Virus record (IMG/VR): IMGVR_UViG_3300001528_000208
Location: 32,001 to 96,000 of that record
Source of the DNA: a virus
Lineage: Duplodnaviria; Caudoviricetes
Length of the DNA stretch: 64,000 nt
Direction: 5' to 3' (one strand)
Shown here: one piece after another, positions 6,766 through 24,026 of the stretch
How the letters are laid out: each line of letters opens with the position of its first letter
Numbering within the stretch: position 1 is the stretch's first letter
Notes under the pieces: model-generated
What the model was told of the DNA's origin: nothing
Databases searched by the model: none
The model's input: only the letters and a program-made list of their open reading frames with translations
Made by a program: the position numbers and the translations under genes

Positions 6766-7782
6766 ATGCCTATCTTTAATCAAGGTACTGGTGGCGGCGG
6801 CGCAAGCCTGTCGCCTATTATTGTTGTTTCTGCGCCGACCGGAAGCACTGTTACCTGCAAGAAGGGTTCTACCGTTCTGACTGCGGAAGAATCTTCTGGT
6901 ACTTGGTCGTTTGCTATTCCGGCATATGGCACGTGGACGGTAACTGGCATAAGTGCTGGAACTACTGTCGAAAAGACGGTTGAAGTGACTGCCATTGAAG
7001 TTTATTTCGTCGCACTTGAATTTATTCCAGCCGTTCTCAATAATGCGACATGGGCGCAGGTTAAGCAGGCGTCCGATTCTGGTGTTGCGTCCAACTATTG
7101 GTCTGTTGGTGATACCAAACAGATTACGATTAACGGCAAAGTGTCCGACGGTCTTACGCTGTCGAACTATTCCACCTATGTATATATTATCGGGTTTGAC
7201 CACAACAGTTCTGTCGAAGGAACCGGCATCGCCTTTGGCGGATTCAAGACTGCTGCGTCTGGTGGAACAGATGTTGCGCTTTGCGACAGCGGATACAACA
7301 CAAATAAAACCAGTGGTCAGTGGTTCAACATGAACAATGACAATAGTACAAGCGGCGGCTGGGCTTCCTGCAATATGCGTAACAATACTTTGCCGCTGGT
7401 CAAGGCTGCGATGCCAAGCGACTTGCAGTCTGTTCTTAAGACGACCACGATTTACACGGATAATATTGGCGGTTCGTCTACCGCCGCAAGCTATGTGACT
7501 GCCACGCAGGATGAATTATACCTTCTTGCCGAATGGGAAATCTTTGGTGCGCGCACATACGCCAACACTGCTGAACAGACGAAACAGCAGCAGTATGCCT
7601 ACTATGTCGCCGGTAATTCGAAGGTTAAATACCACCAAGATGGTGGTATTGCCGCGTATTGGTGGGAGCGTTCCGTGAATGCGACGAACTCCAACGCTTT
7701 CTGCCGTGTGAACTCCAACGGTGCTGCCGGCCGTAACAACGCTAATTTTTCGTATGGGTTGGCCTTGGCTTTCAAAATTTGA
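6766..7782 (+). CDS. DGR target protein, putative receptor-binding protein with a C-type-lectin-like (DUF6273-like) C-terminal domain
   Basis: C-terminal WWERS...FC.V...GLA.AF motif; the 3' end matches the TR except at TR adenines. Confidence 0.9.
   Translation: MPIFNQGTGGGGASLSPIIVVSAPTGSTVTCKKGSTVLTAEESSGTWSFAIPAYGTWTVTGISAGTTVEKTVEVTAIEVYFVALEFIPAVLNNATWAQVKQASDSGVASNYWSVGDTKQITINGKVSDGLTLSNYSTYVYIIGFDHNSSVEGTGIAFGGFKTAASGGTDVALCDSGYNTNKTSGQWFNMNNDNSTSGGWASCNMRNNTLPLVKAAMPSDLQSVLKTTTIYTDNIGGSSTAASYVTATQDELYLLAEWEIFGARTYANTAEQTKQQQYAYYVAGNSKVKYHQDGGIAAYWWERSVNATNSNAFCRVNSNGAAGRNNANFSYGLALAFKI
7649..7771 (+). repeat. DGR variable repeat (VR)
   Basis: Ungapped 123-bp match to 8440-8562. There are 14 mismatches in the 39-codon core plus one near the 3' edge, all opposite TR adenines. 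Confidence 0.95.
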
Positions 7783-7809
7783 CGAAGTCAAATCACATTT
7801 TTAAACATA

Positions 7810-7825
7810 GCGCGCGAAAGCGCGC
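7810..7825 (+). promoter_or_regulatory. DGR target-recognition hairpin downstream of VR
   Basis: GCGCGC-GAAA-GCGCGC stem-loop about 40 nt after the VR end, the position expected for a DGR hairpin/cruciform. Confidence 0.7.
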
Positions 7826-7839
7826 GGAGGAACTATCAT

Positions 7840-8394
7840 ATGTCCGTATTAAAACCTAAAAGAAATGAAAGTACCATAGAATACGTTAAACTTGCTAACG
7901 ACTTGTTTTCGTGGACTGTTAATTTCGCATCAAGATTGTCTGCCAGATATTCTCGCCTTTTGTCAGATCGTACAATTAGTTTGGCGTCCGATGTTTTGGA
8001 GTGTTGTATTAAGGCGCACAATGCATATCCAAGTTGCTATGAATATGCCAAGATGCGCGAATTTTATTTTATAAAAGCGCTTGGTTCGCTGGAAGCTTTG
8101 GATGTTATGTTTGCGCACATCTATGAAATTTTAAGACTTAATCCACAGGGCGCGTTTTCTAAATCTAACGGAAAGTCAATTCCTGAAAATGAAGCCGTCG
8201 AAAAATTAGACAAAATGTGCGTAACAATCGGCGAAATATTCAACAAGGAAAAGGCTGTTCTTTTAAAGATAAAGAAATCTGCGCATGATAAGGTGCGGAC
8301 ATTAGAAAAAGATGAAAAGAAGCATATTGAACTTCCAGAAGAACTTGAAGGACAAATGCGCATATCTGATTTTGAATTTGAATTAAGTATTTAA
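7840..8394 (+). CDS. avd: DGR accessory variability determinant (Avd-like four-helix-bundle protein)
   Basis: Basic helical protein starting MSVLKPKR, located between the target gene and the TR. Confidence 0.8.
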   Translation: MSVLKPKRNESTIEYVKLANDLFSWTVNFASRLSARYSRLLSDRTISLASDVLECCIKAHNAYPSCYEYAKMREFYFIKALGSLEALDVMFAHIYEILRLNPQGAFSKSNGKSIPENEAVEKLDKMCVTIGEIFNKEKAVLLKIKKSAHDKVRTLEKDEKKHIELPEELEGQMRISDFEFELSI

Positions 8395-8439
8395 GACTTA
8401 CTTGGGTATGTTTCTGTATCTTTGTGCCCGTGGGCGTGT

Positions 8440-8562
8440 TTGCCGCGAATTGGTGGGAGCGTTCCGTGAATGCGACGAACTCCAACAATTTCTGCAATGT
8501 GAACACCAACGGTACTGCCAACAATAACAACGCTAATAATTCGAATGGGTTGGCCTTGGATT
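8440..8562 (+). repeat. DGR template repeat (TR)
   Basis: Non-coding copy of the VR containing 15 AAY codons, between avd and RT. Confidence 0.95.
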
Positions 8563-8786
8563 CGATAGTATTGGGTTAATCAAAAACTTCTTGAAAGTTT
8601 TACGACCCTTATTAAAGGAGAAGCATTTCCCGTGAAGGTGTATTCCTTCCAAAACAACCCCGCGATACTGTTGCACGGACGCTTCTTGCATGGTCGAAAG
8701 GCAAATTCGATTTCATGTGTAACAGTTATGCAAGTAATCTATGCGGGATTGGTTATACCAAGTCTTGTACACGGGGTATTTTATTT

Positions 8787-9956
8787 ATGAATAGTGCGCA
8801 AAGACACGAATTTCGATATTATAGGCGTAAAGAAAAGCGTCTTTCGAAAAAGATTAAACGATGCGAAGCTATCGGTGGAATAGATGGTGTATTTACATTT
8901 GGCGATTTATATAAATGCGGCAAAGCGTGCTGTAATGGCGTTCGGTGGAAGCATAGTGTGCAAAATTTCGAAATGCACTTGTTTTCAACTACGGTTAAAT
9001 CGTTGGCTGACGTAAAGAACGATAAATGGGAAAGCAACGAATATTTCAGATTTGTTTTAACGGAACGTGGTAAAACACGCGATATTGATGCGCCCAAAAT
9101 TGTTGACAGGCAAATCCATAAAGCTATTACGCGAAACATTCTTTTGCCGTTATATACACCAATGATGATTTACAATAATGGGGCAAGTCAAAAAGGAAAG
9201 GGATTCCACTTTAGCTCAAATGAACTGAAGAAAGATTTGCGTGAACATTTTAGGAAGTATGGTCGTGAAGGTTGGATACTTCTAATTGATTTCAAGAAAT
9301 TTTTTCCAAACGCAAAACACGCAAATATATACAATAATCATGAAGAATTAATTTTTGATGAAAGATTGCGTAGATTGTGTGATTATGTTGTTGGATTTAA
9401 CAATAATTCTGGATTTGGTATGCCGCTTGGCGTAGAACCAAGTCAAGCGGAAATGATTTTCTTCCCATGGAAACTTGATTGCTATTTAACGTGCCAATGT
9501 GGATTTAGTGGATGCGGTCACTATATGGATGACTATTATATTATAATACCGCCAACGATGAATCCGCATGATGTTCGTGCGAAAGTATTATCTTTTGCCG
9601 AATCGCTTGGAATAAGAGTAAATCGCGATAAATCATACTTCGTTAAACTTACAAAATCGTTCCGATATTGTAAAATACGATATCGACTTACGGATACTGG
9701 TGCCGTTAAAACACTTGGTAGTAGACCTGCTTATAGGCGAGCTGCAAGGAAAATTCGTGCATTTAAACGCATGGTGGACGAAGGCAAAATGAAATATGAG
9801 GATGTCTACTGTTCTATGAATTCTATAATATCGTATTTCGATAATTTCGACGACAATAACCGTTCTTTTAGATTGAAACGATTGTTTGTTAAAACGTTTG
9901 GATTTAAATATGACGACCTAATGACATTTAGAAGGAGGGATTTCTATAATGTATAA
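8787..9956 (+). CDS. DGR reverse transcriptase (alternative start 8715)
   Basis: DFKKFF, GVEPSQ (DGR-type SQ) and YMDD motifs; adjacent to the TR and avd. Confidence 0.95.
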   Translation: MNSAQRHEFRYYRRKEKRLSKKIKRCEAIGGIDGVFTFGDLYKCGKACCNGVRWKHSVQNFEMHLFSTTVKSLADVKNDKWESNEYFRFVLTERGKTRDIDAPKIVDRQIHKAITRNILLPLYTPMMIYNNGASQKGKGFHFSSNELKKDLREHFRKYGREGWILLIDFKKFFPNAKHANIYNNHEELIFDERLRRLCDYVVGFNNNSGFGMPLGVEPSQAEMIFFPWKLDCYLTCQCGFSGCGHYMDDYYIIIPPTMNPHDVRAKVLSFAESLGIRVNRDKSYFVKLTKSFRYCKIRYRLTDTGAVKTLGSRPAYRRAARKIRAFKRMVDEGKMKYEDVYCSMNSIISYFDNFDDNNRSFRLKRLFVKTFGFKYDDLMTFRRRDFYNV

Positions 9957-16432: not shown

Positions 16433-17146
16433 ATGGCGACAAAAGCTGAAATCGAAAAAGTAATCGCAACCGGTATGAAATATATCGGTACCACCAGCAA
16501 GAACAACAATGTAATTTTTAATACGGAATATTACGGGCGCGAAGTTTCTGGCGCGGACTATGCGTGGTGCGTTGTGTTCCAGTGGTATATTTTTCGCGAA
16601 GCTGGGCTGGCGAAGCATTTCTTTAATGGCGCGAAAGTTGCTGGTTGTTCCGCCGCGCGTAAATATCATGAAGCTGTTGGTCAGGTGGTCTATGGCGACT
16701 ATCAGCGCGGCGACCTTCTGCTGTTTGATTTTGACGGCAAGAAGAAGCGCACGCAGCATATCGGCATCTGCCTTGAAAATAACGGCAAGACTGTGAAATC
16801 GCTTGATGGCAATACCAGCAGCAAAAGCGAAGATAACGGCGGAACGGTCAATATTCGCGAACGCGCCTTGAAGTATGTAACGTGCGCCATTCGCTGGTGG
16901 AAGGCGACGCCGTCGCGCACTTATGTTTCTACGTTTGCGCCAATCTTGAAGAACGGTGACGTAGGATACCCCGTAGACGTCCTACAGTACGCCCTGAAGG
17001 CGCGTGGCTACTATTCCGATAACTTAGACGGGTCTTTTGGAAACAACACTGTGGCGGCTGTGAAGGCGCTACAGAAGGCTTCTAAAATCGCGCAGACGGG
17101 CAAGATGGATAAGAATACGTGGGAAAAATTATTGCGGGGTGATTAA
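16433..17146 (+). CDS. Endolysin (CHAP domain plus peptidoglycan-binding domain)
   Basis: AWCVVF, HIGI and DGNT catalytic motifs; C-terminal DGSFGNNT..AVKALQ. Confidence 0.9.
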   Translation: MATKAEIEKVIATGMKYIGTTSKNNNVIFNTEYYGREVSGADYAWCVVFQWYIFREAGLAKHFFNGAKVAGCSAARKYHEAVGQVVYGDYQRGDLLLFDFDGKKKRTQHIGICLENNGKTVKSLDGNTSSKSEDNGGTVNIRERALKYVTCAIRWWKATPSRTYVSTFAPILKNGDVGYPVDVLQYALKARGYYSDNLDGSFGNNTVAAVKALQKASKIAQTGKMDKNTWEKLLRGD

Positions 17147-17980: not shown

Positions 17981-19012
17981 GTGATTTTTAACAGATATGC
18001 ACGTGGCGGTGGTGGCGGTGGACTTGGCGCGTTGATTTACGTGACGGTCGAAGCTGGCAGTACCGTAACGGCAACCATGGGAACAATGACACGCAACGCC
18101 GTGTATAGTCAAGGTGTTTATGTGATTGATATTCCCGCATTTGGCGATTGGGTTGTAACGGCAACAAAGGGCGCGAATACGGCAACGGCGACCGTTTCGG
18201 TGACGAAGGCGGGGATGTATGAAATCACGTTAAAGTATATTAGTGCGACGCTAAACGACAATGATTGGGCAACGATTTGCGATATTGCAGACGCAAATGA
18301 AGGCTCCAATTATTGGTCTATCGGAGACACGAAGCAAATCGTAATTAACGGTAAACTTTCCGACGGATTGACCCTATCAAACTATTCTACATGGGTTTAC
18401 ATTATAGGCTTTGACCACAATTCGTCCGTTGAAGGCACGGGCATTGCGTTTCAGGGCTTCAAGACTGCGCAAACGGGCGGCATTGATGTGGCGTTGGTTG
18501 ATAGTGGGATTGACTCTGCTAAAACCAGTGGTCAGTGGTTCAATATGAATAACGCATCCACGATAAGCACCGGTGGTTGGAAAGATAGTTTGATGAGAAC
18601 TGTAACGATTCCAGTTGTAAAGTCTGCTTTCCCGAATGACTTGATATCCGTTATTAAAAAGACTAATATTTACAGTGATAACACCGGTGGTGCAAGTGAA
18701 GCTGCATCATATGTCACTGCTACGCAAGACGACCTATATCTTCTTGCTGAGTACGAAGCGTTTGGTACAAGAACTTATGCTAATACTGCCGAACAGAATT
18801 ATCAGCAGCAATACGCCTACTACTCGTCTGGTAATAGTAGAATTAAATATCGCCACAATTCTACTGCAACTGGCGTGGTTTGGTGGGAACGTTCCGTTCG
18901 TGCAGCATATTCTGGATATTTCTGTAGTGTGGGGACTGCTGGAGATCCTTTTATTGGACAGGCGAGTACCGACCGTGGTCTTGCCCCGGCATTTAAAGTT
19001 GGGGGGGGGTAA
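17981..19012 (+). CDS. Paralog of the DGR target (lectin-like receptor-binding protein), ending in a G9 tract
   Basis: Colinear high similarity to 6766..7782 (NYWS.GDTKQI.INGK.SDGLTLSNYST..., WWERSV). Confidence 0.9.
   Translation: MIFNRYARGGGGGGLGALIYVTVEAGSTVTATMGTMTRNAVYSQGVYVIDIPAFGDWVVTATKGANTATATVSVTKAGMYEITLKYISATLNDNDWATICDIADANEGSNYWSIGDTKQIVINGKLSDGLTLSNYSTWVYIIGFDHNSSVEGTGIAFQGFKTAQTGGIDVALVDSGIDSAKTSGQWFNMNNASTISTGGWKDSLMRTVTIPVVKSAFPNDLISVIKKTNIYSDNTGGASEAASYVTATQDDLYLLAEYEAFGTRTYANTAEQNYQQQYAYYSSGNSRIKYRHNSTATGVVWWERSVRAAYSGYFCSVGTAGDPFIGQASTDRGLAPAFKVGGG
19001..19009 (+). repeat. G9 homopolymer at a frame junction
   Basis: GTT GGG GGG GGG TAA; the -1 frame is open from 18997 to 19704. 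Confidence 0.9.
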
Positions 19013-19704
19013 CAACTAACCCTATTTCTGACCTGTCTGTTGGTGATTCGGTTTATATAAAGGAAGACGGAACCGATGTTGAATATCTGATTGTCCATAG
19101 GGGTAATCCAGATTCTTCTGTGTATGATTCGTCTTGCGATGGAACGTGGTTGTTACGCAAGACAGTATTCCCGAATGTCGCTTGGAACGCTACAGCTTCG
19201 TCCAACTGGACCACGTGCGACGTTATGAAGTGGTTGCGTGACACGTATCCATCTACTACCAATGTTTCGTCTATAATGAACACAGCAAAGGTACCATATA
19301 TTGGAACACAGATGAACCAGATTATTTCTGGGGCAAATGGAAACGCTGCCAAATGTTTCCTTCTTAGTAATGCTGAAGCTGGATTCCTGACCGACACAAA
19401 CGCAACGAAATCTTTGAATGTGTGTGGCGCCAAGCTTGATTATTTTGATGAAACATCAACCACTGTGGCATCCAGTAAGCGCATTGCCTATAGTTACACT
19501 AATGCATCTACTGCTGTATCTTGGTGGTTGCGTACTCAGCCGCTGTCAAATCAAAGCAACGCAGAGTTTTGTGGCCTATATGGTGGCCATGGTCACGGCA
19601 GCGTGACGTATACGTCTGCGATGGGACAGGTATTTGGCGTTCGTCCGTGCTTCATTGTTCCGAATGATACGCTAATCGACAGTAATCACAATATCGTCGT
19701 ATAA
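19009..19704 (+). CDS. Second DUF6273-like lectin domain lacking its own start, probably reached by a frameshift or G-tract change (annotated GTG at 19120 is inside the domain)
   Basis: ISDLSVGDSVYIKEDG..EYLIVHRGNP...YDSSCDGTWLLRK...WWLR...GVRP. No ATG/GTG/TTG between TAA 18994 and 19120. Confidence 0.75.
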   Translation, partial: VTTNPISDLSVGDSVYIKEDGTDVEYLIVHRGNPDSSVYDSSCDGTWLLRKTVFPNVAWNATASSNWTTCDVMKWLRDTYPSTTNVSSIMNTAKVPYIGTQMNQIISGANGNAAKCFLLSNAEAGFLTDTNATKSLNVCGAKLDYFDETSTTVASSKRIAYSYTNASTAVSWWLRTQPLSNQSNAEFCGLYGGHGHGSVTYTSAMGQVFGVRPCFIVPNDTLIDSNHNIVV

Positions 19705-19712
19705 AGAATAAC

Positions 19713-19741
19713 TTGACAAAAATCAAACCGTGCGCTATAAT
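19713..19741 (+). promoter_or_regulatory. SigA-type promoter
   Basis: TTGACA-17-TATAAT. Confidence 0.8.
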
Positions 19742-20264: not shown

Positions 20265-21356
20265 ATGGTAAACAGGTTTAAGACGGAGATTTTTCCAGAC
20301 GAAAATCAGCACAAGTTATTCCTTTATTTTTGTAACGAATATAGGGAAATGTGGAACTATACGGTTGAAAAATTTCGGGACAATTATCCTATTGTTTACA
20401 AGAATGGAATTAAAGGATTCAAACCGTCTGATTTATTCAAGGAATCTAAGAACAAATGTTTGCAAAGAATAGCGGTTGGTGTTATAAAGAATTATGCCTT
20501 TGCAGTCAAAATGTTCAAGCTTGGTATTTGTAATAAGCCAAGATTTCATAAATATAACCCAAACAAACAATCATTCTATCTTGCGTGTCATAAGTTTGAA
20601 ATAACAAGACTTAGTGAAGATGAAGTGATTATTGGTAAAAATGGCGTTTTTCGATGGATTCGCCTTGACGTAGAAGTTATAAACAAATACGATATCAAAG
20701 AAATACGTGAACCAGTGTTTTCTTATGAAAATGGCAGGTGGTATATCAGTGGTGCGTATAGGGTTGAAGCTGCACCGCGTCAAGGTCGCACAGAATTCAT
20801 TGGTCTTGATTGGGGAATTAAGAATTTCATGACAACATCAGATGGTCAATTTATAAATTACCCGAAGTCTATAAAAAGGGAATATCAACGTGTCAAAGTT
20901 TTGCTTAAACATCTTAACAAAAAGCAAAAAGGTTCTCGAAATTATATTAAGATGATAAGAAAGTGCCATAAAGCGATTCGAAGAATTGAACATTTGAAGC
21001 ACAATTTTATAGAACAAGAAACGACAAGATTGTGTAGGCAAAACAATATTGCTGTTGAAAAATTTCCACCAACCACTTATAAAAGATTTAAATACGTTGA
21101 ACGTGTTGCACCACGCGGAAGATTTGTTGTAAGACTTGCGCGAAAATGCGAAAAGTTTGGCACCGAGTTTATGGCTGTTCCGCCGCAATATACAAGCAGG
21201 ATTTGTAGTTGCTGTGGTTTTCAAAAGAAAAGCCTTAAATTATCTGAACGTGTTTATAAGTGTGAAAACTGCGGAGTTGAAATTGACCGTGATGTAAATG
21301 CGGCGCGAAATATCGCCGCAATGGGTGTTCGCAGCATCCACAAGCCTATAGAATAG
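20265..21356 (+). CDS. tnpB: TnpB-family RNA-guided nuclease (no tnpA nearby)
   Basis: GLDWG, IAVE and TSRICSCCG...CENCG..DRDVNAA motifs; AT-richer than its flanks. Confidence 0.9.
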   Translation: MVNRFKTEIFPDENQHKLFLYFCNEYREMWNYTVEKFRDNYPIVYKNGIKGFKPSDLFKESKNKCLQRIAVGVIKNYAFAVKMFKLGICNKPRFHKYNPNKQSFYLACHKFEITRLSEDEVIIGKNGVFRWIRLDVEVINKYDIKEIREPVFSYENGRWYISGAYRVEAAPRQGRTEFIGLDWGIKNFMTTSDGQFINYPKSIKREYQRVKVLLKHLNKKQKGSRNYIKMIRKCHKAIRRIEHLKHNFIEQETTRLCRQNNIAVEKFPPTTYKRFKYVERVAPRGRFVVRLARKCEKFGTEFMAVPPQYTSRICSCCGFQKKSLKLSERVYKCENCGVEIDRDVNAARNIAAMGVRSIHKPIE

Positions 21357-21698: not shown

Positions 21699-24026
21699 TT
21701 GAATATTAGCATCAATCTGGACAAAGATTTTAGCGAAAAATTTAATGAACTGCGTGAAAAATATGGCGATGAAATTGCAAAGCTGAATGGATTTTCCGAC
21801 GAACAGCTTAGTTATACAGACTTCATTGATAACTTTGTTGATAAAAATACGGTGGCAGACGCCAGTATTGACGGCAATGCCAATGTTGGTGCAAAAGATA
21901 TTTGTTCGCTTGATAGCGAAATGAATAAGCCACATAGCAAGTTGCTGTCCTTCAACAAGGTCTATTACGAAATGAAGAAAAAGTATGGCAAGGATATTGC
22001 TGATAGATGGTTAGAATACGAGTGGATCGGAAAATTTTACGCTCACGATTCCCCAAGTTTGTCGCAGAAAAGTTATTGTTTTGCGTATGACCTTGAAGGT
22101 TTGGTAAGTAAGGGGCTATATTTTGTTCCTAATTTCAATGGTCAGCCGCCTAAGCATCTTGTAACATACACTGATTTCGTTGGTGAATTTGTTTCTTATG
22201 CAAGCAATCGTTCTTCTGGCGCTTGTGGACTTCCCAGCTTCCTTGTATATTCGTTCTACTTCTGGAAGAAAGACGTAAAAGATGGCTACTATACTGGTAC
22301 GCCTGAAAGATATCGCGACCAAGAGTTCCAAAGAATCACCTATAAGCTGAACCAGCCGTATTTGCGTGTTAATCAAAGCGCGTTTACAAACTTTTCTATT
22401 TTTGATAGACCGTATTTCGAATCGCTTTTTGGATACAAAACATTTCCTGATGGTGAATTCATGATTGACTATATTGATGAATTTATGGAATATCAGAAGG
22501 CATTTATGGAAGTTGTGTCAAAAATTCGCGAACAGAATATGATGACTTTCCCGGTGCTTTCATTTTGTCTTCTTCGTAAGAATGGAAAGTTTGTAGACGA
22601 AGATTTTGCGCGCTGGTGCTGTAAACACAACATGAAGTGGGCGGATTCCAACTTTTTCGTAAGCGAAGATGTCACATCCCTTTCAAACTGTTGTTTTAGC
22701 GGCAACACAATGTTTATGACGACTGATGGCATCAGAAGATTTGATTCTTTTAAAGACGGCGATTCCATTGTCGTTCCGTGCATCAATGGTTCCAACAATA
22801 ATGCAGTTGTCCATACTTATGGCGAACAAAGACTATTCCGCATCAAACTTTGCCGTAATGGAAAGCATAGAGATGTATTGACCACCAGAAATCACAGGTG
22901 GATTCTTGACGGAAATACGGAAACAAACTATCTTTCTGTTGGCGATGTGTTAGTTAAATCTGCGCATGATACAGATGATGGGAATTGGTCTGTTGTTGAT
23001 ATTGAAGATACTGGAATTGTAGAAACTGTTTGGTGTCTTGATGTCGAAAATGAACACAATTTCATTCTTGCGGACAACATTCCTTGTGGGAACTGCCGTC
23101 TTGTTTCTGATGTAAAGAATTTGGGCTATTTCAATTCTATTGGCGGGACCGCGCTTGAAGTCGGTTCTGTCAAGGTAAACACCATCAATCTTGCAAGAAT
23201 CGCCTATGAAACGAAATCTAAAGAAGATTATCTAAAGCAGCTTTCTGATGAAGTTGTTCTTTGCTTGCAGATGCTTGATGTGGTGCGCCACATTATCACG
23301 CGCAATATCGAAAAAGGACTTCTGCCGAATTATTCTTATGGTCTTATGCACATGAAGTCTCAGTACAATACCATCGGCATCGTCGCCCTTTATGAAACCT
23401 TACAGGAGTTTGGTATGACGCACAAGGATAAACTTGGCTATGCGCATTACACCGACGAAGGTATCGAATTTGCAAAAGATATTCTTCATACCATTAACAA
23501 GGTAAAAGATGAATTTGTTGCCGACAAGGATTATTCTGCGAATCTGGAGCAGATTCCCGCCGAACGGGCGGCAAGCATTCTGATGCAGAAAGATATGGTT
23601 TTCTTCCCTGATGAAGCATACGACCTTCCGCTATATGGCAACCAGTGGATTCCGCTTGGTGTAAAGACCACGCTTGAAGAAAAGTGCAAGCTTAGTGCGA
23701 TTCTTGATAAGGCGTGTAACGGTGGCAGTATTGCGCACATCAACATTGATGCACCGTTCAATAACTTTGACACGGCGTGGAATATGCTGAACTATGTCGC
23801 CGACAGTGGCGTCCCTTATTTCGCGTTCTGCACCAGAATTTCTGCCTGTGAAGAAAATCACGGATTCTATGGCGACAAGTGTCCTATTTGTGGCAAGCCG
23901 AAGGTTACGACTTATCAGCGCGTGGTTGGTTTCTTAACACCTGAAAAGACATATTCTAAGGAACGCAAGGCTGAATTTAAGATGCGCGACTGGTTTGACC
24001 TGAACGCAATCTGTGATACATTATGA
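21699..24026 (+). CDS. nrdD: Anaerobic (class III) ribonucleotide reductase containing a mini-intein
   Basis: YC, TFPV, SNC/CRL, EQIPAE, C-terminal Zn site and the RVVGF glycyl-radical loop. Confidence 0.92.
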   Translation: MNISINLDKDFSEKFNELREKYGDEIAKLNGFSDEQLSYTDFIDNFVDKNTVADASIDGNANVGAKDICSLDSEMNKPHSKLLSFNKVYYEMKKKYGKDIADRWLEYEWIGKFYAHDSPSLSQKSYCFAYDLEGLVSKGLYFVPNFNGQPPKHLVTYTDFVGEFVSYASNRSSGACGLPSFLVYSFYFWKKDVKDGYYTGTPERYRDQEFQRITYKLNQPYLRVNQSAFTNFSIFDRPYFESLFGYKTFPDGEFMIDYIDEFMEYQKAFMEVVSKIREQNMMTFPVLSFCLLRKNGKFVDEDFARWCCKHNMKWADSNFFVSEDVTSLSNCCFSGNTMFMTTDGIRRFDSFKDGDSIVVPCINGSNNNAVVHTYGEQRLFRIKLCRNGKHRDVLTTRNHRWILDGNTETNYLSVGDVLVKSAHDTDDGNWSVVDIEDTGIVETVWCLDVENEHNFILADNIPCGNCRLVSDVKNLGYFNSIGGTALEVGSVKVNTINLARIAYETKSKEDYLKQLSDEVVLCLQMLDVVRHIITRNIEKGLLPNYSYGLMHMKSQYNTIGIVALYETLQEFGMTHKDKLGYAHYTDEGIEFAKDILHTINKVKDEFVADKDYSANLEQIPAERAASILMQKDMVFFPDEAYDLPLYGNQWIPLGVKTTLEEKCKLSAILDKACNGGSIAHINIDAPFNNFDTAWNMLNYVADSGVPYFAFCTRISACEENHGFYGDKCPICGKPKVTTYQRVVGFLTPEKTYSKERKAEFKMRDWFDLNAICDTL
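22692..23093 (+). mobile_element. Mini-intein (134 aa, no endonuclease)
   Basis: Starts CFSGNT, block B TRNHRW, block F VWCLDV..EHNF, ends GN before the +1 Cys. Removal restores SNCCRL. Confidence 0.9.

What the first reader, a model, noticed from the sequence alone, without database searches (positions are those of the whole stretch)
18994..19704. A G9 tract joins two lectin-like receptor-binding domains: phase variation or -1 frameshift
Seen: gene 17981 ends AFKV-GGG GGG GGG TAA. The -1 frame is closed by TAA at 18994-18996, then open to 19704 with no start codon until 19120. Even so, the first 37 codons (VTTNPISDLSVGDSVYIKEDG...) read as the N-terminus of a DUF6273-like domain. The only crossover window is 18997-19012, which is the G tract. 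G10, G7 or a -1 slip on G GGG GGG would give a tandem two-domain protein. Inference: a second, DGR-independent host-range switch between short and long adhesin forms.
Basis: partly seen in the sequence, partly recalled or inferred. Interest (0 to 1): 0.8.

Follow-up and report, generated by a model that had tools for sequence, protein, structure and literature searches.

The report
Poly-G switch joining two phage lectin domains
A run of nine G's sits exactly at the joint between two lectin-like domains of a gut-phage surface protein and puts the second domain out of frame. Related phages carry the same joint in frame, one base short or one base long, so it most likely acts as a mutational on/off switch for the extra domain.

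Summary
ORF 17981..19012 ends AFKV-GGG-GGG-GGG-TAA, with the G9 run at 19001-19009. The -1 frame is open from 18997 to 19704 and has no ATG, GTG or TTG before 19120. The stretch before 19120 is real domain sequence. It aligns with homologues, is modelled as two confident beta-strands, and is covered by the match to a solved DUF6273 domain (9qa6, Z 17.8).

Relatives carry the same joint in frame (AFKVGGGVTKP, AFKVGGVVTKP). Others have the extra domain in the -1 frame (seven other diverged proteins ending AFKVGGG-stop) or in the +1 frame (second-domain ORFs reading back as ..SKWGGGVTKP).

GGG is the rarest Gly codon here (7.6%), and G/C runs are otherwise depleted. There is no downstream RNA structure, and all-G heptamers are not among efficient -1 frameshift motifs in E. 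coli.

Best reading (about 0.5): a hypermutable poly-G contingency tract that toggles a one-domain and a two-domain lectin protein, caught here in the short phase. Programmed slippage, an assembly miscount (true G10) and a recent dead frameshift remain open, because no reads or DNA of close relatives could be fetched. "Host-range switch" is unproven. Earlier first-stage notes of this scan flagged the same tract on this genome. Phage poly-G switches are already known, so this is a new variant.

The parts
17981..19012 (+). ORF1, the short form (343 aa): N-terminal beta-sandwich-like module (about residues 1-85), then DUF6273 C-type-lectin-like domain 1, ending AFKV-GGG-stop. It is a paralogue (58% identity) of the DGR target gene 6766..7782.
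19001..19009 (+). The G9 homopolymer: three GGG Gly codons in frame 0, forming the flexible inter-domain linker. It is the proposed slippage or contingency tract.
   Evidence: The linker is low-confidence (flexible) in the model of the fused relative.
19010..19012 (+). TAA stop of the short form. It arises from G-TAA-C, which in the G10 (in-frame) state would read GTA ACA (Val-Thr).
   Evidence: junctions of relatives
18994..18996 (+). TAA that closes the -1 frame just upstream of the tract.
19009..19704 (+). Second DUF6273 C-type-lectin-like domain in the -1 frame (VTTNPISDLSVGDSV... to the stop at 19702-19704). It has no start codon of its own before 19120.
19120..19122 (+). First canonical start codon (GTG) in the -1 frame. 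It falls at domain residue 42, after two core beta-strands, with no good Shine-Dalgarno sequence at proper spacing, so it is unlikely to be the real start.
19713..19741 (+). Perfect TTGACA-17-TATAAT promoter directly after domain 2. The same promoter follows the 339-aa (single-domain) orthologue in relatives L140 and G002. Domain 2 therefore lies inside the gene-17981 transcription unit as an insert-like module.
6766..9956 (+). Context, the genome's DGR: target gene 6766..7782 (VR 7649-7771), TR 8440-8562, reverse transcriptase 8715..9956. It does not serve gene 17981.

Best explanation
The G9 run is a hypermutable homopolymeric (contingency) tract placed in the glycine linker between two C-type-lectin-like domains of a virion-surface accessory protein of a ~105-kb human-gut phage. 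Slipped-strand mispairing during phage DNA replication changes the tract length.

In the in-frame length (G10 or G7 in this genome) one polypeptide is made: N-terminal beta-sandwich, lectin domain 1, Gly linker, lectin domain 2. In the other two phases translation stops right after the linker and only the one-domain form is made.

The assembled genome is in the -1 (short, 'OFF') phase. The phage population would therefore hold a heritable, reversible mixture of particles with and without the distal lectin module. A low level of decoding slippage on the G run may add a trace of long form.

Shown: the anatomy, that the pre-19120 codons belong to the domain, the fold, the existence of fused and of both kinds of out-of-frame relatives, and the codon and composition anomaly of the tract.

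Inferred: that tract length really varies within populations, that switching is reversible and selected, and what the domains bind.
For: 1. Anatomy.
2. In-frame relatives have the same joint: P0334 AFKVGGGVTKP; P0326, P0327, P0330, P0339 and P0358 AFKVGGVVTKP; P0337 GGVI; P0301 GGAV.
3. -1 phase relatives: seven further clusters, mutually diverged throughout domain 1, end AFKVGGG-stop (P0020, P0036, P0052, P0053, P0057, P0062, P0108).
4. +1 phase relatives: second-domain ORFs read back through the junction as ..PSKWGGVVTKP or ..RSKWGGGVTKP (P0127, P0367, P0369). This is the +1-frame reading of ..AFKVGG... Further split forms start at an internal TTG or ATG, two of them on contigs of 108,746 and 106,980 nt.
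5. Split second domains are intact. P0002 keeps the family-invariant residues and folds at pLDDT 90.
6. Two other C-terminal module types also show frameshifted alleles right after AFKVGG (P0074 and P0119 against P0120 and P0025).
7. GGG is the rarest Gly codon, and G/C runs of 6 or more are depleted except for this G9 and a G8.
8. Poly-G tracts in coding DNA recur in related ~107-kb phages. G001 has six. Three lie about 13 codons after ATG-started genes seen (one of these a DUF6273 gene), two lie at the same N-terminal motif of earlier ORFs (one a DUF6273 gene by Pfam), and a C8 run codes the linker of a DUF6273-like protein. One of the ATG-started genes is out of frame behind a good RBS and ATG. 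G002 has a G9 that breaks a PP-loop ATPase gene.
9. Precedent: Campylobacter phage poly-G tracts (Sorensen 2021, cited in PMC12823448 and PMC10877375) and phage contingency loci (bioRxiv 10.1101/2025.10.21.683753).
Against:
- Tract lengths in relatives are therefore inferred from protein ends, not seen.
- Some of the apparent phase variation could be homopolymer miscalls in other people's assemblies.
- Within the closest lineage (N-terminus MIFNRYARGGGGGG), every G-tract allele seen is in the -1 phase and none is in frame. This would also fit a fixed programmed -1 arrangement or a favoured OFF state.
- It is unknown which domain follows the seven AFKVGGG-stop ORFs.
Confidence: 0.5

Rival explanations
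1. Programmed decoding slippage. The G9-plus-TAA arrangement is the wild type. A fixed minority of ribosomes slip -1 on G_GGG_GGG (or at the GGG/TAA boundary), or RNA polymerase adds one G. Each infected cell then makes mostly short protein plus some two-domain protein, as with C-terminal Ig-like extensions of other phage structural proteins.
For: - Re-pairing of tRNA-Gly in the -1 frame is perfect, and three rare GGG codons are followed directly by a stop.
- All eight G-tract alleles of the closest lineage share the -1 arrangement.
- Precedent: frameshift-appended C-terminal domains in T3, A2, A118 and PSA, and low-level frameshifting on a G run in HSV thymidine kinase (PMC5009743).
Against: - There is no downstream stimulatory structure. 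The 121-nt fold gives z = +1.36, and 186 of 200 shuffles fold at least as well.
- All-G heptamers are absent from the list of efficient E. coli -1 motifs, and G_GG.G_GG.U without stimulator gave 0.018%, the lowest value measured (PMC4066793).
- Relatives exist in frame and in the +1 phase, which a -1 slip cannot serve.
- Transcriptional slippage in bacteria is documented mainly for A/T runs (own knowledge).
Confidence: 0.15
2. Assembly or sequencing miscount. The real tract is G10 (or G7), and the gene is simply an in-frame two-domain protein like P0334.
For: - Long G homopolymers are error-prone.
- A one-base change restores a protein with the same architecture as natural relatives.
- The record is a single metagenome-assembled contig.
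Against: - The same AFKVGGG-stop end occurs in seven other diverged sequences from independent ENA and Logan assemblies.
- Large ORFs elsewhere in the window are unbroken, so the assembly is not generally indel-ridden.
- With only three runs of 8 or more in the genome, this is a weak control.
Confidence: 0.15
3. Plain inactivating frameshift. The second domain was recently lost by a one-base deletion and is a decaying remnant. The short form is the only product, and the tract has no switching role.
For: - Most orthologues (84 of the best 120 hits) are 339-aa single-domain proteins that end at AFKV or AFKI. Syntenic relatives L140 and G002 lack the second domain altogether. The extra domain is therefore dispensable.
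Against: - The 235-codon frame is intact, keeps the invariant family residues and folds confidently.
- The nearest relative of the second domain (P0123, 67% identity) is also called as a separate ORF from an internal start, yet is intact.
- The break lies exactly in a rare-codon homopolymer rather than at a random site.
Confidence: 0.12
4. Independent initiation. The second domain is translated on its own, from GTG 19120, TTG 19150 or a non-canonical codon, perhaps with the G run acting as a Shine-Dalgarno-like element.
For: - Free-standing DUF6273 proteins of 230-240 aa exist in other phages (PMC10743442).
- G-rich motifs can act as SD sequences (PMC4066793).
Against: - There is no ATG, GTG or TTG for 37 codons after the tract.
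- GTG 19120 and TTG 19150 would delete two core strands.
- In none of 80 distant loci does the first start codon lie inside the domain near residue 42. It lies upstream of, or within two codons of, the match start.
- The nearest non-canonical codon (ATT 19024) is 14 nt from the G run.
- There is no promoter between the ORFs.
- A free domain would lack the N-terminal module that fused relatives have.
Confidence: 0.03

Closest known systems
Hypermutable poly-G tracts in Campylobacter (Fletchervirus) phage receptor-binding genes (Sorensen et al. 2021, Cell Rep 35:109214; cited in PMC12823448 and PMC10877375)
   Same: A long G homopolymer inside a phage surface or receptor-binding-type gene. Length changes shift the frame and create phenotypically mixed phage populations. 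Related genomes (G001) carry several tracts.
   Different: Different phage group and host: a ~105-kb human-gut phage whose DUF6273 relatives are in Faecalibacterium phages and Oscillospiraceae or Clostridia MAGs. Here the tract sits at an inter-domain linker, so it toggles an extra C-terminal domain rather than the whole protein. It also coexists with a DGR. I did not read that paper itself, so details of its tract positions are not compared.
Phage contingency loci in T2, T4 and other phages (Gomez, Barrick and Waters 2025, bioRxiv 10.1101/2025.10.21.683753)
   Same: Simple-sequence repeats in phage genes give reversible frameshifts by polymerase slippage, acting as bet-hedging.
   Different: Those were shown by sequencing and phenotype. 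Here switching is only inferred from alleles of relatives.
C-terminal Ig-like or other extensions of phage structural proteins added by programmed frameshifting (T3 and T7 gene 10, Lactobacillus A2, Listeria A118, A500 and PSA; PMC5009743)
   Same: One gene gives a short and a C-terminally extended form that carries an extra binding-type domain. Related phages have the extension in frame, at -1 or at +1.
   Different: Those use defined slippery sites with stimulators and give fixed ratios. Here the site is a G9 run with no stimulator, and the motif class is inefficient in E. coli.
DUF6273 C-type-lectin-like DGR targets of gut phages ('tgt2' proteins and tentaclins, PMC10743442; Toutatisvirus hotspot, bioRxiv 10.1101/2024.10.15.618418)
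   Same: Same domain family and fold, same kind of phages, and a DGR-targeted paralogue in the same genome.
   Different: Gene 17981 is not matched by this genome's TR. Its topology (N-terminal beta-sandwich followed by lectin domains) is the reverse of tentaclins. No homopolymer switch was described for these proteins in the passages I read.
HSV thymidine kinase G-run indels with compensatory frameshifting (PMC5009743)
   Same: A G-run indel plus a possible low level of decoding slippage on the same run.
   Different: That is a eukaryotic virus and translation system. It is a drug-selected mutation, not a domain switch.

Membership tests
Homopolymeric-tract contingency locus (phase variation by slipped-strand mispairing) | Uninterrupted mononucleotide run of about 7 nt or more inside a coding region or promoter | tested here: met
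   G9 at 19001-19009 inside ORF 17981..19012. It is one of only two G/C runs of 6 or more in 104.8 kb.
Homopolymeric-tract contingency locus (phase variation by slipped-strand mispairing) | A change of tract length switches between two defined protein products | tested here: met
   Frame logic: G9 gives a 343-aa one-domain form, and G10 or G7 gives a two-domain form of about 574 aa. Natural fused relatives confirm the long product.
Homopolymeric-tract contingency locus (phase variation by slipped-strand mispairing) | Tract-length polymorphism among close relatives or within a population | tested here: inconclusive
   Protein ends of relatives imply in-frame, -1 and +1 alleles. No DNA or reads of these relatives could be fetched, and assembly miscalls cannot be separated from real variation.
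Homopolymeric-tract contingency locus (phase variation by slipped-strand mispairing) | Measured high-frequency, reversible switching | not testable with these tools
   Needs reads or passage experiments.
Programmed -1 ribosomal frameshift site | Slippery heptamer X_XXY_YYZ that allows both tRNAs to re-pair in the -1 frame | tested here: met
   G_GGG_GGG at 19003-19009. All-G heptamers are not among the efficient E. coli motifs (PMC4066793).
Programmed -1 ribosomal frameshift site | Stimulatory element (downstream hairpin or pseudoknot, or upstream SD at a defined spacing) | tested here: not met
   RNA fold of 18990-19110 gives -25 kcal/mol against a shuffle mean of -29.5, z = +1.36. No separate SD lies upstream apart from the run itself.
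Programmed -1 ribosomal frameshift site | Shift site and frame relation conserved among homologues | tested here: inconclusive
   Eight alleles of the closest lineage share the -1 arrangement. The wider group has in-frame and +1 alleles of the same joint.
DUF6273 / C-type-lectin-like domain | Pfam PF19789 match above the gathering score | tested here: met
   P0001 scores 36.1 bits and P0002 scores 69.7 bits against a cut-off of 23.5.
DUF6273 / C-type-lectin-like domain | C-type-lectin-like fold | tested here: met
   AlphaFold2 model of P0002 has pLDDT 90. VIA-align gives Z 17.8, rmsd 2.3 A over 184 residues, to the DUF6273 N-terminal domain of 9qa6. It then gives Z 5-7.5 to many CTLDs and to the DGR protein TvpA (2y3c, Z 6.5). 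The paper on that peptidase family names its N-terminal domain DUF6273 (PMC12402451).
DGR variable protein (target of this genome's DGR) | VR that differs from the TR only at TR adenines | tested here: not met
   Gene 17981 C-terminus against the TR: 30 of 85 non-A positions differ. Domain 2 C-terminus: 37 of 79 differ. The true VR (7649-7771): 0 of 88 non-A and 15 of 35 A positions differ.

The most novel reading that the evidence does not exclude
Glycine linkers written as poly-G (or poly-C) runs may be a selected, lineage-wide 'joint' in these ~105-108-kb gut phages. The same AFKV-GG(G) joint carries at least three interchangeable C-terminal module types: a second DUF6273 lectin domain, the 'KYTPLEYI' module, and a repeat of domain 1. 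At least two of these occur in out-of-frame alleles. Related genomes place G8-G10 runs at the N-terminal ends of whole sets of neighbouring genes, at least two of them DUF6273 genes. The phages would then diversify their surface lectins on two tiers. DGR mutagenesis would change the binding site of one paralogue, and poly-G slippage would stochastically add or remove whole binding modules on another.
Probability: 0.35. Interest if true: 0.7.

Novelty: new variant of a known kind. Interest (0 to 1): 0.55.

Why it matters
Gut phages are known to diversify their lectin-like surface proteins with DGRs. A second, independent layer would be a homopolymer switch that adds or removes a whole distal lectin domain. 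That would mean a single phage genotype produces mixed populations of particles with different binding valency or specificity. This bears on phage persistence, on adsorption to bacteria or mucus, and on how metagenomic phage genes are annotated, because such genes are now called as a short protein plus a start-less orphan ORF. It would also extend phage poly-G contingency loci, known from Campylobacter phages and T-even phages, to abundant human-gut phages of Firmicutes. The idea is directly testable from existing public read sets.

Tried and rejected
The DNA around the AFKVGGG-stop proteins, the fused proteins and the split second-domain ORFs could therefore not be fetched. This was the planned decisive comparison.
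- blastn of the locus against GenBank phages found no match. tblastn gave only relatives below 50% identity, including Faecalibacterium phages.
- IMG/VR scans:
  - P0002 alone found nothing.
  - P0001 found only single-domain orthologues (L002, L003/L004) and distant relatives.
  - The junction pattern GCNTTYAARGTNGGGGGGG gave three chance hits.
  - A second-domain alignment gave 80 loci, all at 40% identity or less.
- The JGI metagenome scan found two loci, both 339-aa single-domain forms.
- The GTDB genome scan found five distant relatives.
- I rebuilt the orthologue of G002 across its contig ends. It is the single-domain form.
- The AFKVGSN-stop alleles (P0095, P0104, P0110) could not be explained by a simple poly-C slip of the GSNPPPQP linker and are left open.
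- The AlphaFold2 model of the fused relative P0334 was poor for domain 1 (mean pLDDT 63). It is used only for the N-terminal sandwich, domain 2 and the flexible linker.
- Considered and rejected: an independent start for domain 2 (see rivals), and gene 17981 as a second VR of the local TR.
Full report
**What is there.** The window is bases 32001-96000 of a 104,805-nt IMG/VR phage contig rated 98% complete. ORF 17981..19012 (GTG start, 343 aa, P0001) ends GCA TTT AAA GTT GGG GGG GGG TAA. The G run occupies 19001-19009. In the -1 frame a TAA lies at 18994-18996. After it the frame is open for 235 codons to the TAA at 19702-19704 (P0002). The first ATG, GTG or TTG in that frame is GTG at 19120. 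The record's own gene call starts later still, at TTG 19150 (P0122).

**Both parts are DUF6273 domains, and the start-less stretch is part of the second one.**
- Pfam DUF6273 matches P0001 residues 195-340 and P0002 residues 48-222.
- PHROG 10993 matches P0002 from residue 11.
- tblastn hits in Faecalibacterium and uncultured gut phages begin at residues 9-14.
- In 80 distant IMG/VR loci the match begins at residues 3-14. The first start codon in frame lies upstream of the match start in nearly all of them, and within two codons of it in the rest, never near residue 42.
- In a 120-sequence alignment the near-invariant columns G16, V19, G25 and V33 lie before residue 42, the GTG.
- An AlphaFold2 model of P0002 (pLDDT 90.1, pTM 0.89) has pLDDT 97-98 over residues 11-40 and places strands 18-23 and 26-36 there.
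- The model matches the N-terminal domain of the Thomasclavelia ramosa IgA peptidase over residues 7-235 (9qa6; Z 17.8, rmsd 2.3 A, 184 residues). The paper on that peptidase family names its N-terminal domain DUF6273 (PMC12402451).
- Below that come many C-type-lectin-like domains and the DGR variable protein TvpA at Z 5-7.5.

A start at 19120 or 19150 would remove two core strands. No promoter or terminator lies between the two ORFs. A perfect TTGACA-17-TATAAT promoter follows the second domain at 19713-19741.

**Relatives show the two ORFs are one protein.** A search with P0001 found thousands of homologues.
- Most close ones are 339-aa proteins ending AFKV or AFKI (84 of the best 120).
- Others continue in frame into a second module.
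- With the P0002-type domain the in-frame junctions are AFKVGGGVTKP (P0334), AFKVGGVVTKP (P0326, P0327, P0330, P0339, P0358), AFKVGGVITKP, AFKVGGAVTKP, AFKVGSTTISAL and AFKVGSNPPPQPIS.
- The predicted read-through product of this window, AFKVGGG-VTTNPISDLSVGDSVY, aligns column for column with them.
- Other module types hang on the same joint: AFKVGG[AVT]KYTP..., and a repeat of domain 1 after AFKVGTTP.
- Syntenic relatives L140 and G002 have the 339-aa form, followed by a hairpin and the same promoter. The second domain is therefore an optional module inside this transcription unit.

**The joint occurs in all three phases.**
- -1 phase: seven further protein clusters end AFKVGGG-stop like this window (P0020, P0036, P0052, P0053, P0057, P0062, P0108). 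They differ from each other all along domain 1, so they are not copies of one sequence.
- Split second domains: the cluster of P0127 holds ten second-domain ORFs called on their own.
- +1 phase: three of these read back across the junction as ..PSKWGGVVTKP, ..PPSKWGGVVTKP and ..RSKWGGGVTKP. The string [PLHR]-S-K-W-G is the +1-frame reading of GCN TTC AAA GTG GGG (A-F-K-V-G). In those contigs the second domain is thus one base long rather than one base short.
- Other split forms: four begin at an internal TTG (MLPVGASVY) and two at ATG (MRK...), on contigs of 108,746 and 106,980 nt.
- P0123, the closest relative of P0002 (67% identity), is also called as a separate ORF from an internal codon.
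- P0074 and P0119 are the +1-frame read-through of the KYTPLEYI module directly after AFKVGG.

In-frame, -1 and +1 alleles of the same G-rich joint therefore all exist, for more than one module type.

**The tract is not a by-product of coding.**
- GGG is the rarest glycine codon in 22 genes of the window (54 of 715, 7.6%).
- Of 16 Gly-Gly-Gly triplets, only this one uses GGG.
- The six-glycine run at residues 9-14 of the same gene is written GGC GGT GGT GGC GGT GGA.
- The genome has only two G/C runs of 6 or more where a first-order Markov model expects about ten. Those two are this G9 and a G8.

**Tests for programmed frameshifting.**
- G_GGG_GGG allows perfect re-pairing. However, the 121 nt around and after it fold no better than shuffles (z = +1.36).
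- In the systematic E. coli study, all-G heptamers are not among the efficient motifs. G_GG.G_GG.U without a stimulator gave the lowest value measured, 0.018% (PMC4066793).
- A -1 slip cannot serve the +1 alleles.
- In favour of slippage, all G-tract alleles of the closest lineage are in the -1 phase. Precedents exist for frameshift-appended C-terminal domains in phages and for low-level frameshifting on a G run (PMC5009743).

**Context.**
- The genome has a complete DGR: TR 8440-8562, VR 7649-7771 in gene 6766..7782, with 15 of 15 mismatches at TR adenines, and the reverse transcriptase at 8715..9956.
- P0001 is 58% identical to that target. Its own C-terminus differs from the TR at 30 of 85 non-A positions, so it is not a target here.
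- Gene 17981 lies after the endolysin (16433..17146) at the end of the late region. Its relatives are annotated only as Hoc-like or Ig-like decoration proteins.
- That it sets host range is therefore not shown.

**Poly-G tracts in related phages.** Three IMG/VR genomes of 107-108 kb share the DNA polymerase at 38-45% identity.
- G001 has six G/C runs of 8 or more.
  - G8 at L051:3840, G10 at L148:1732 and G10 at L148:2629 each lie about 13 codons after an ATG. The genes begin MSQIIGE, MSKIIGD (ORF called from MEFS) and MSQIIGD. The L148:1732 gene is DUF6273-like.
  - G10 at L051:2334 and G8 at L051:2695 lie at the same N-terminal motif of two earlier ORFs (MIIYGD..., MKIQGD...). The second of these matches Pfam DUF6273.
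  - The L051:3840 gene is out of frame behind a good RBS and ATG.
  - A C8 run codes a PPPP linker just before the lectin domain of a DUF6273-like protein.
- G002 has a G9 run 12 codons into a PP-loop ATPase gene that breaks the frame.

The theme of long G runs in coding DNA, some of them out of frame, is therefore wider than this gene.

**Verdict.** The most likely explanation is a hypermutable poly-G contingency tract that toggles a one-domain and a two-domain lectin protein, seen here in the short phase (about 0.5). The rivals are:
- programmed decoding slippage (0.15);
- an assembly miscount of a true G10 (0.15);
- a recent dead frameshift (0.12);
- independent initiation (0.03).

The decisive data are read-level tract lengths and the DNA of the relatives' contigs. 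Phage poly-G switches are already described (Sorensen 2021, as cited in PMC12823448 and PMC10877375; bioRxiv 10.1101/2025.10.21.683753). This is therefore a new variant of a known kind. It differs in three respects: the tract sits at a domain joint, the phage is a DGR-bearing gut phage, and the tract toggles a module rather than a whole gene.

Earlier first-stage notes of this scan flagged the same tract and the DGR on this genome. They added no independent evidence.

Noticed in passing
G000:C1:103012-103019 (outside the window; would be window coordinate 71012): This G8 is the only other long G/C run of the genome. On the minus strand it is a C8 run placed directly before an ATG (CCCACCCCCCCC-T-ATGGCGATGAAG...), just after the stop of the upstream minus-strand gene. 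A look-alike G8 (CATAGGGGGGGGTG) is present in relative G002 (L147:1218), where the ATG is followed by an early stop. It may be a second switch acting on translation initiation or promoter spacing.
   Followed up: partly
L051:2334, 2695, 3840 and L148:885, 1732, 2629 (G001, IMGVR_UViG_3300045988_126954): This related 107-kb phage has six G/C runs of 8-10 nt. Three (L051:3840, L148:1732, L148:2629) lie about 13 codons after the ATG of genes beginning MSQIIGE, MSKIIGD (called from MEFS) and MSQIIGD. Two (L051:2334, 2695) lie at the same N-terminal motif of ORFs beginning MIIYGD and MKIQGD. At least two of the five are DUF6273 genes. The gene starting at L051:3799 is out of frame at its G8. A C8 run codes a PPPP linker before the lectin domain of a DUF6273-like protein.
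   Followed up: partly
L146:1511 (G002:C1:56110-56118): A G9 run 12 codons after the ATG of a PP-loop (SGGKDS) ATPase gene puts the start out of frame with the body of the gene.
   Followed up: partly
window 6766-9956: This is a complete DGR cassette: target with VR 7649-7771, TR 8440-8562 (15 mismatches, all at TR adenines) and reverse transcriptase 8715..9956. In relatives L003 and L139 a 339-aa MIFNRYARGG-type gene sits directly upstream of the TR.
   Followed up: yes
window 18868-18990 and orthologues (alignment A4 columns 300-335): The last ~35 residues of domain 1 before AFKV are hypervariable among orthologues (W-x-ERS-V-x...FC-x-V...G...), as in a DGR variable region. In this genome, however, the stretch differs from the TR at many non-A positions. 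It may be a former VR, or a VR served by a DGR elsewhere.
   Followed up: partly
P0095, P0104, P0110 (proteins of relatives): Three orthologues end AFKVGSN-stop, exactly where fused relatives continue AFKVGSNPPPQPIS. A simple poly-C slip does not explain this stop, and no DNA was available.
   Followed up: no
window 20265-21356 and 21699-24026: A TnpB/IS605 OrfB-type gene (Cas12f-like TNB domain) lies just downstream. After it comes an anaerobic ribonucleotide reductase NrdD gene with a weak, sub-threshold match to an intein splicing domain (Pfam 28.4 bits against a cut-off of 35.8).
   Followed up: no
P0021 versus P0117 (fused relatives), second domain: Two fused proteins with near-identical second domains differ at a few clustered positions near its C-terminus (for example NNATDYW against NNAFDYW, and SYSGDGSNPTC against SCDGDGINPTC). 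The second domain may itself be DGR-diversified in some phages.
   Followed up: no
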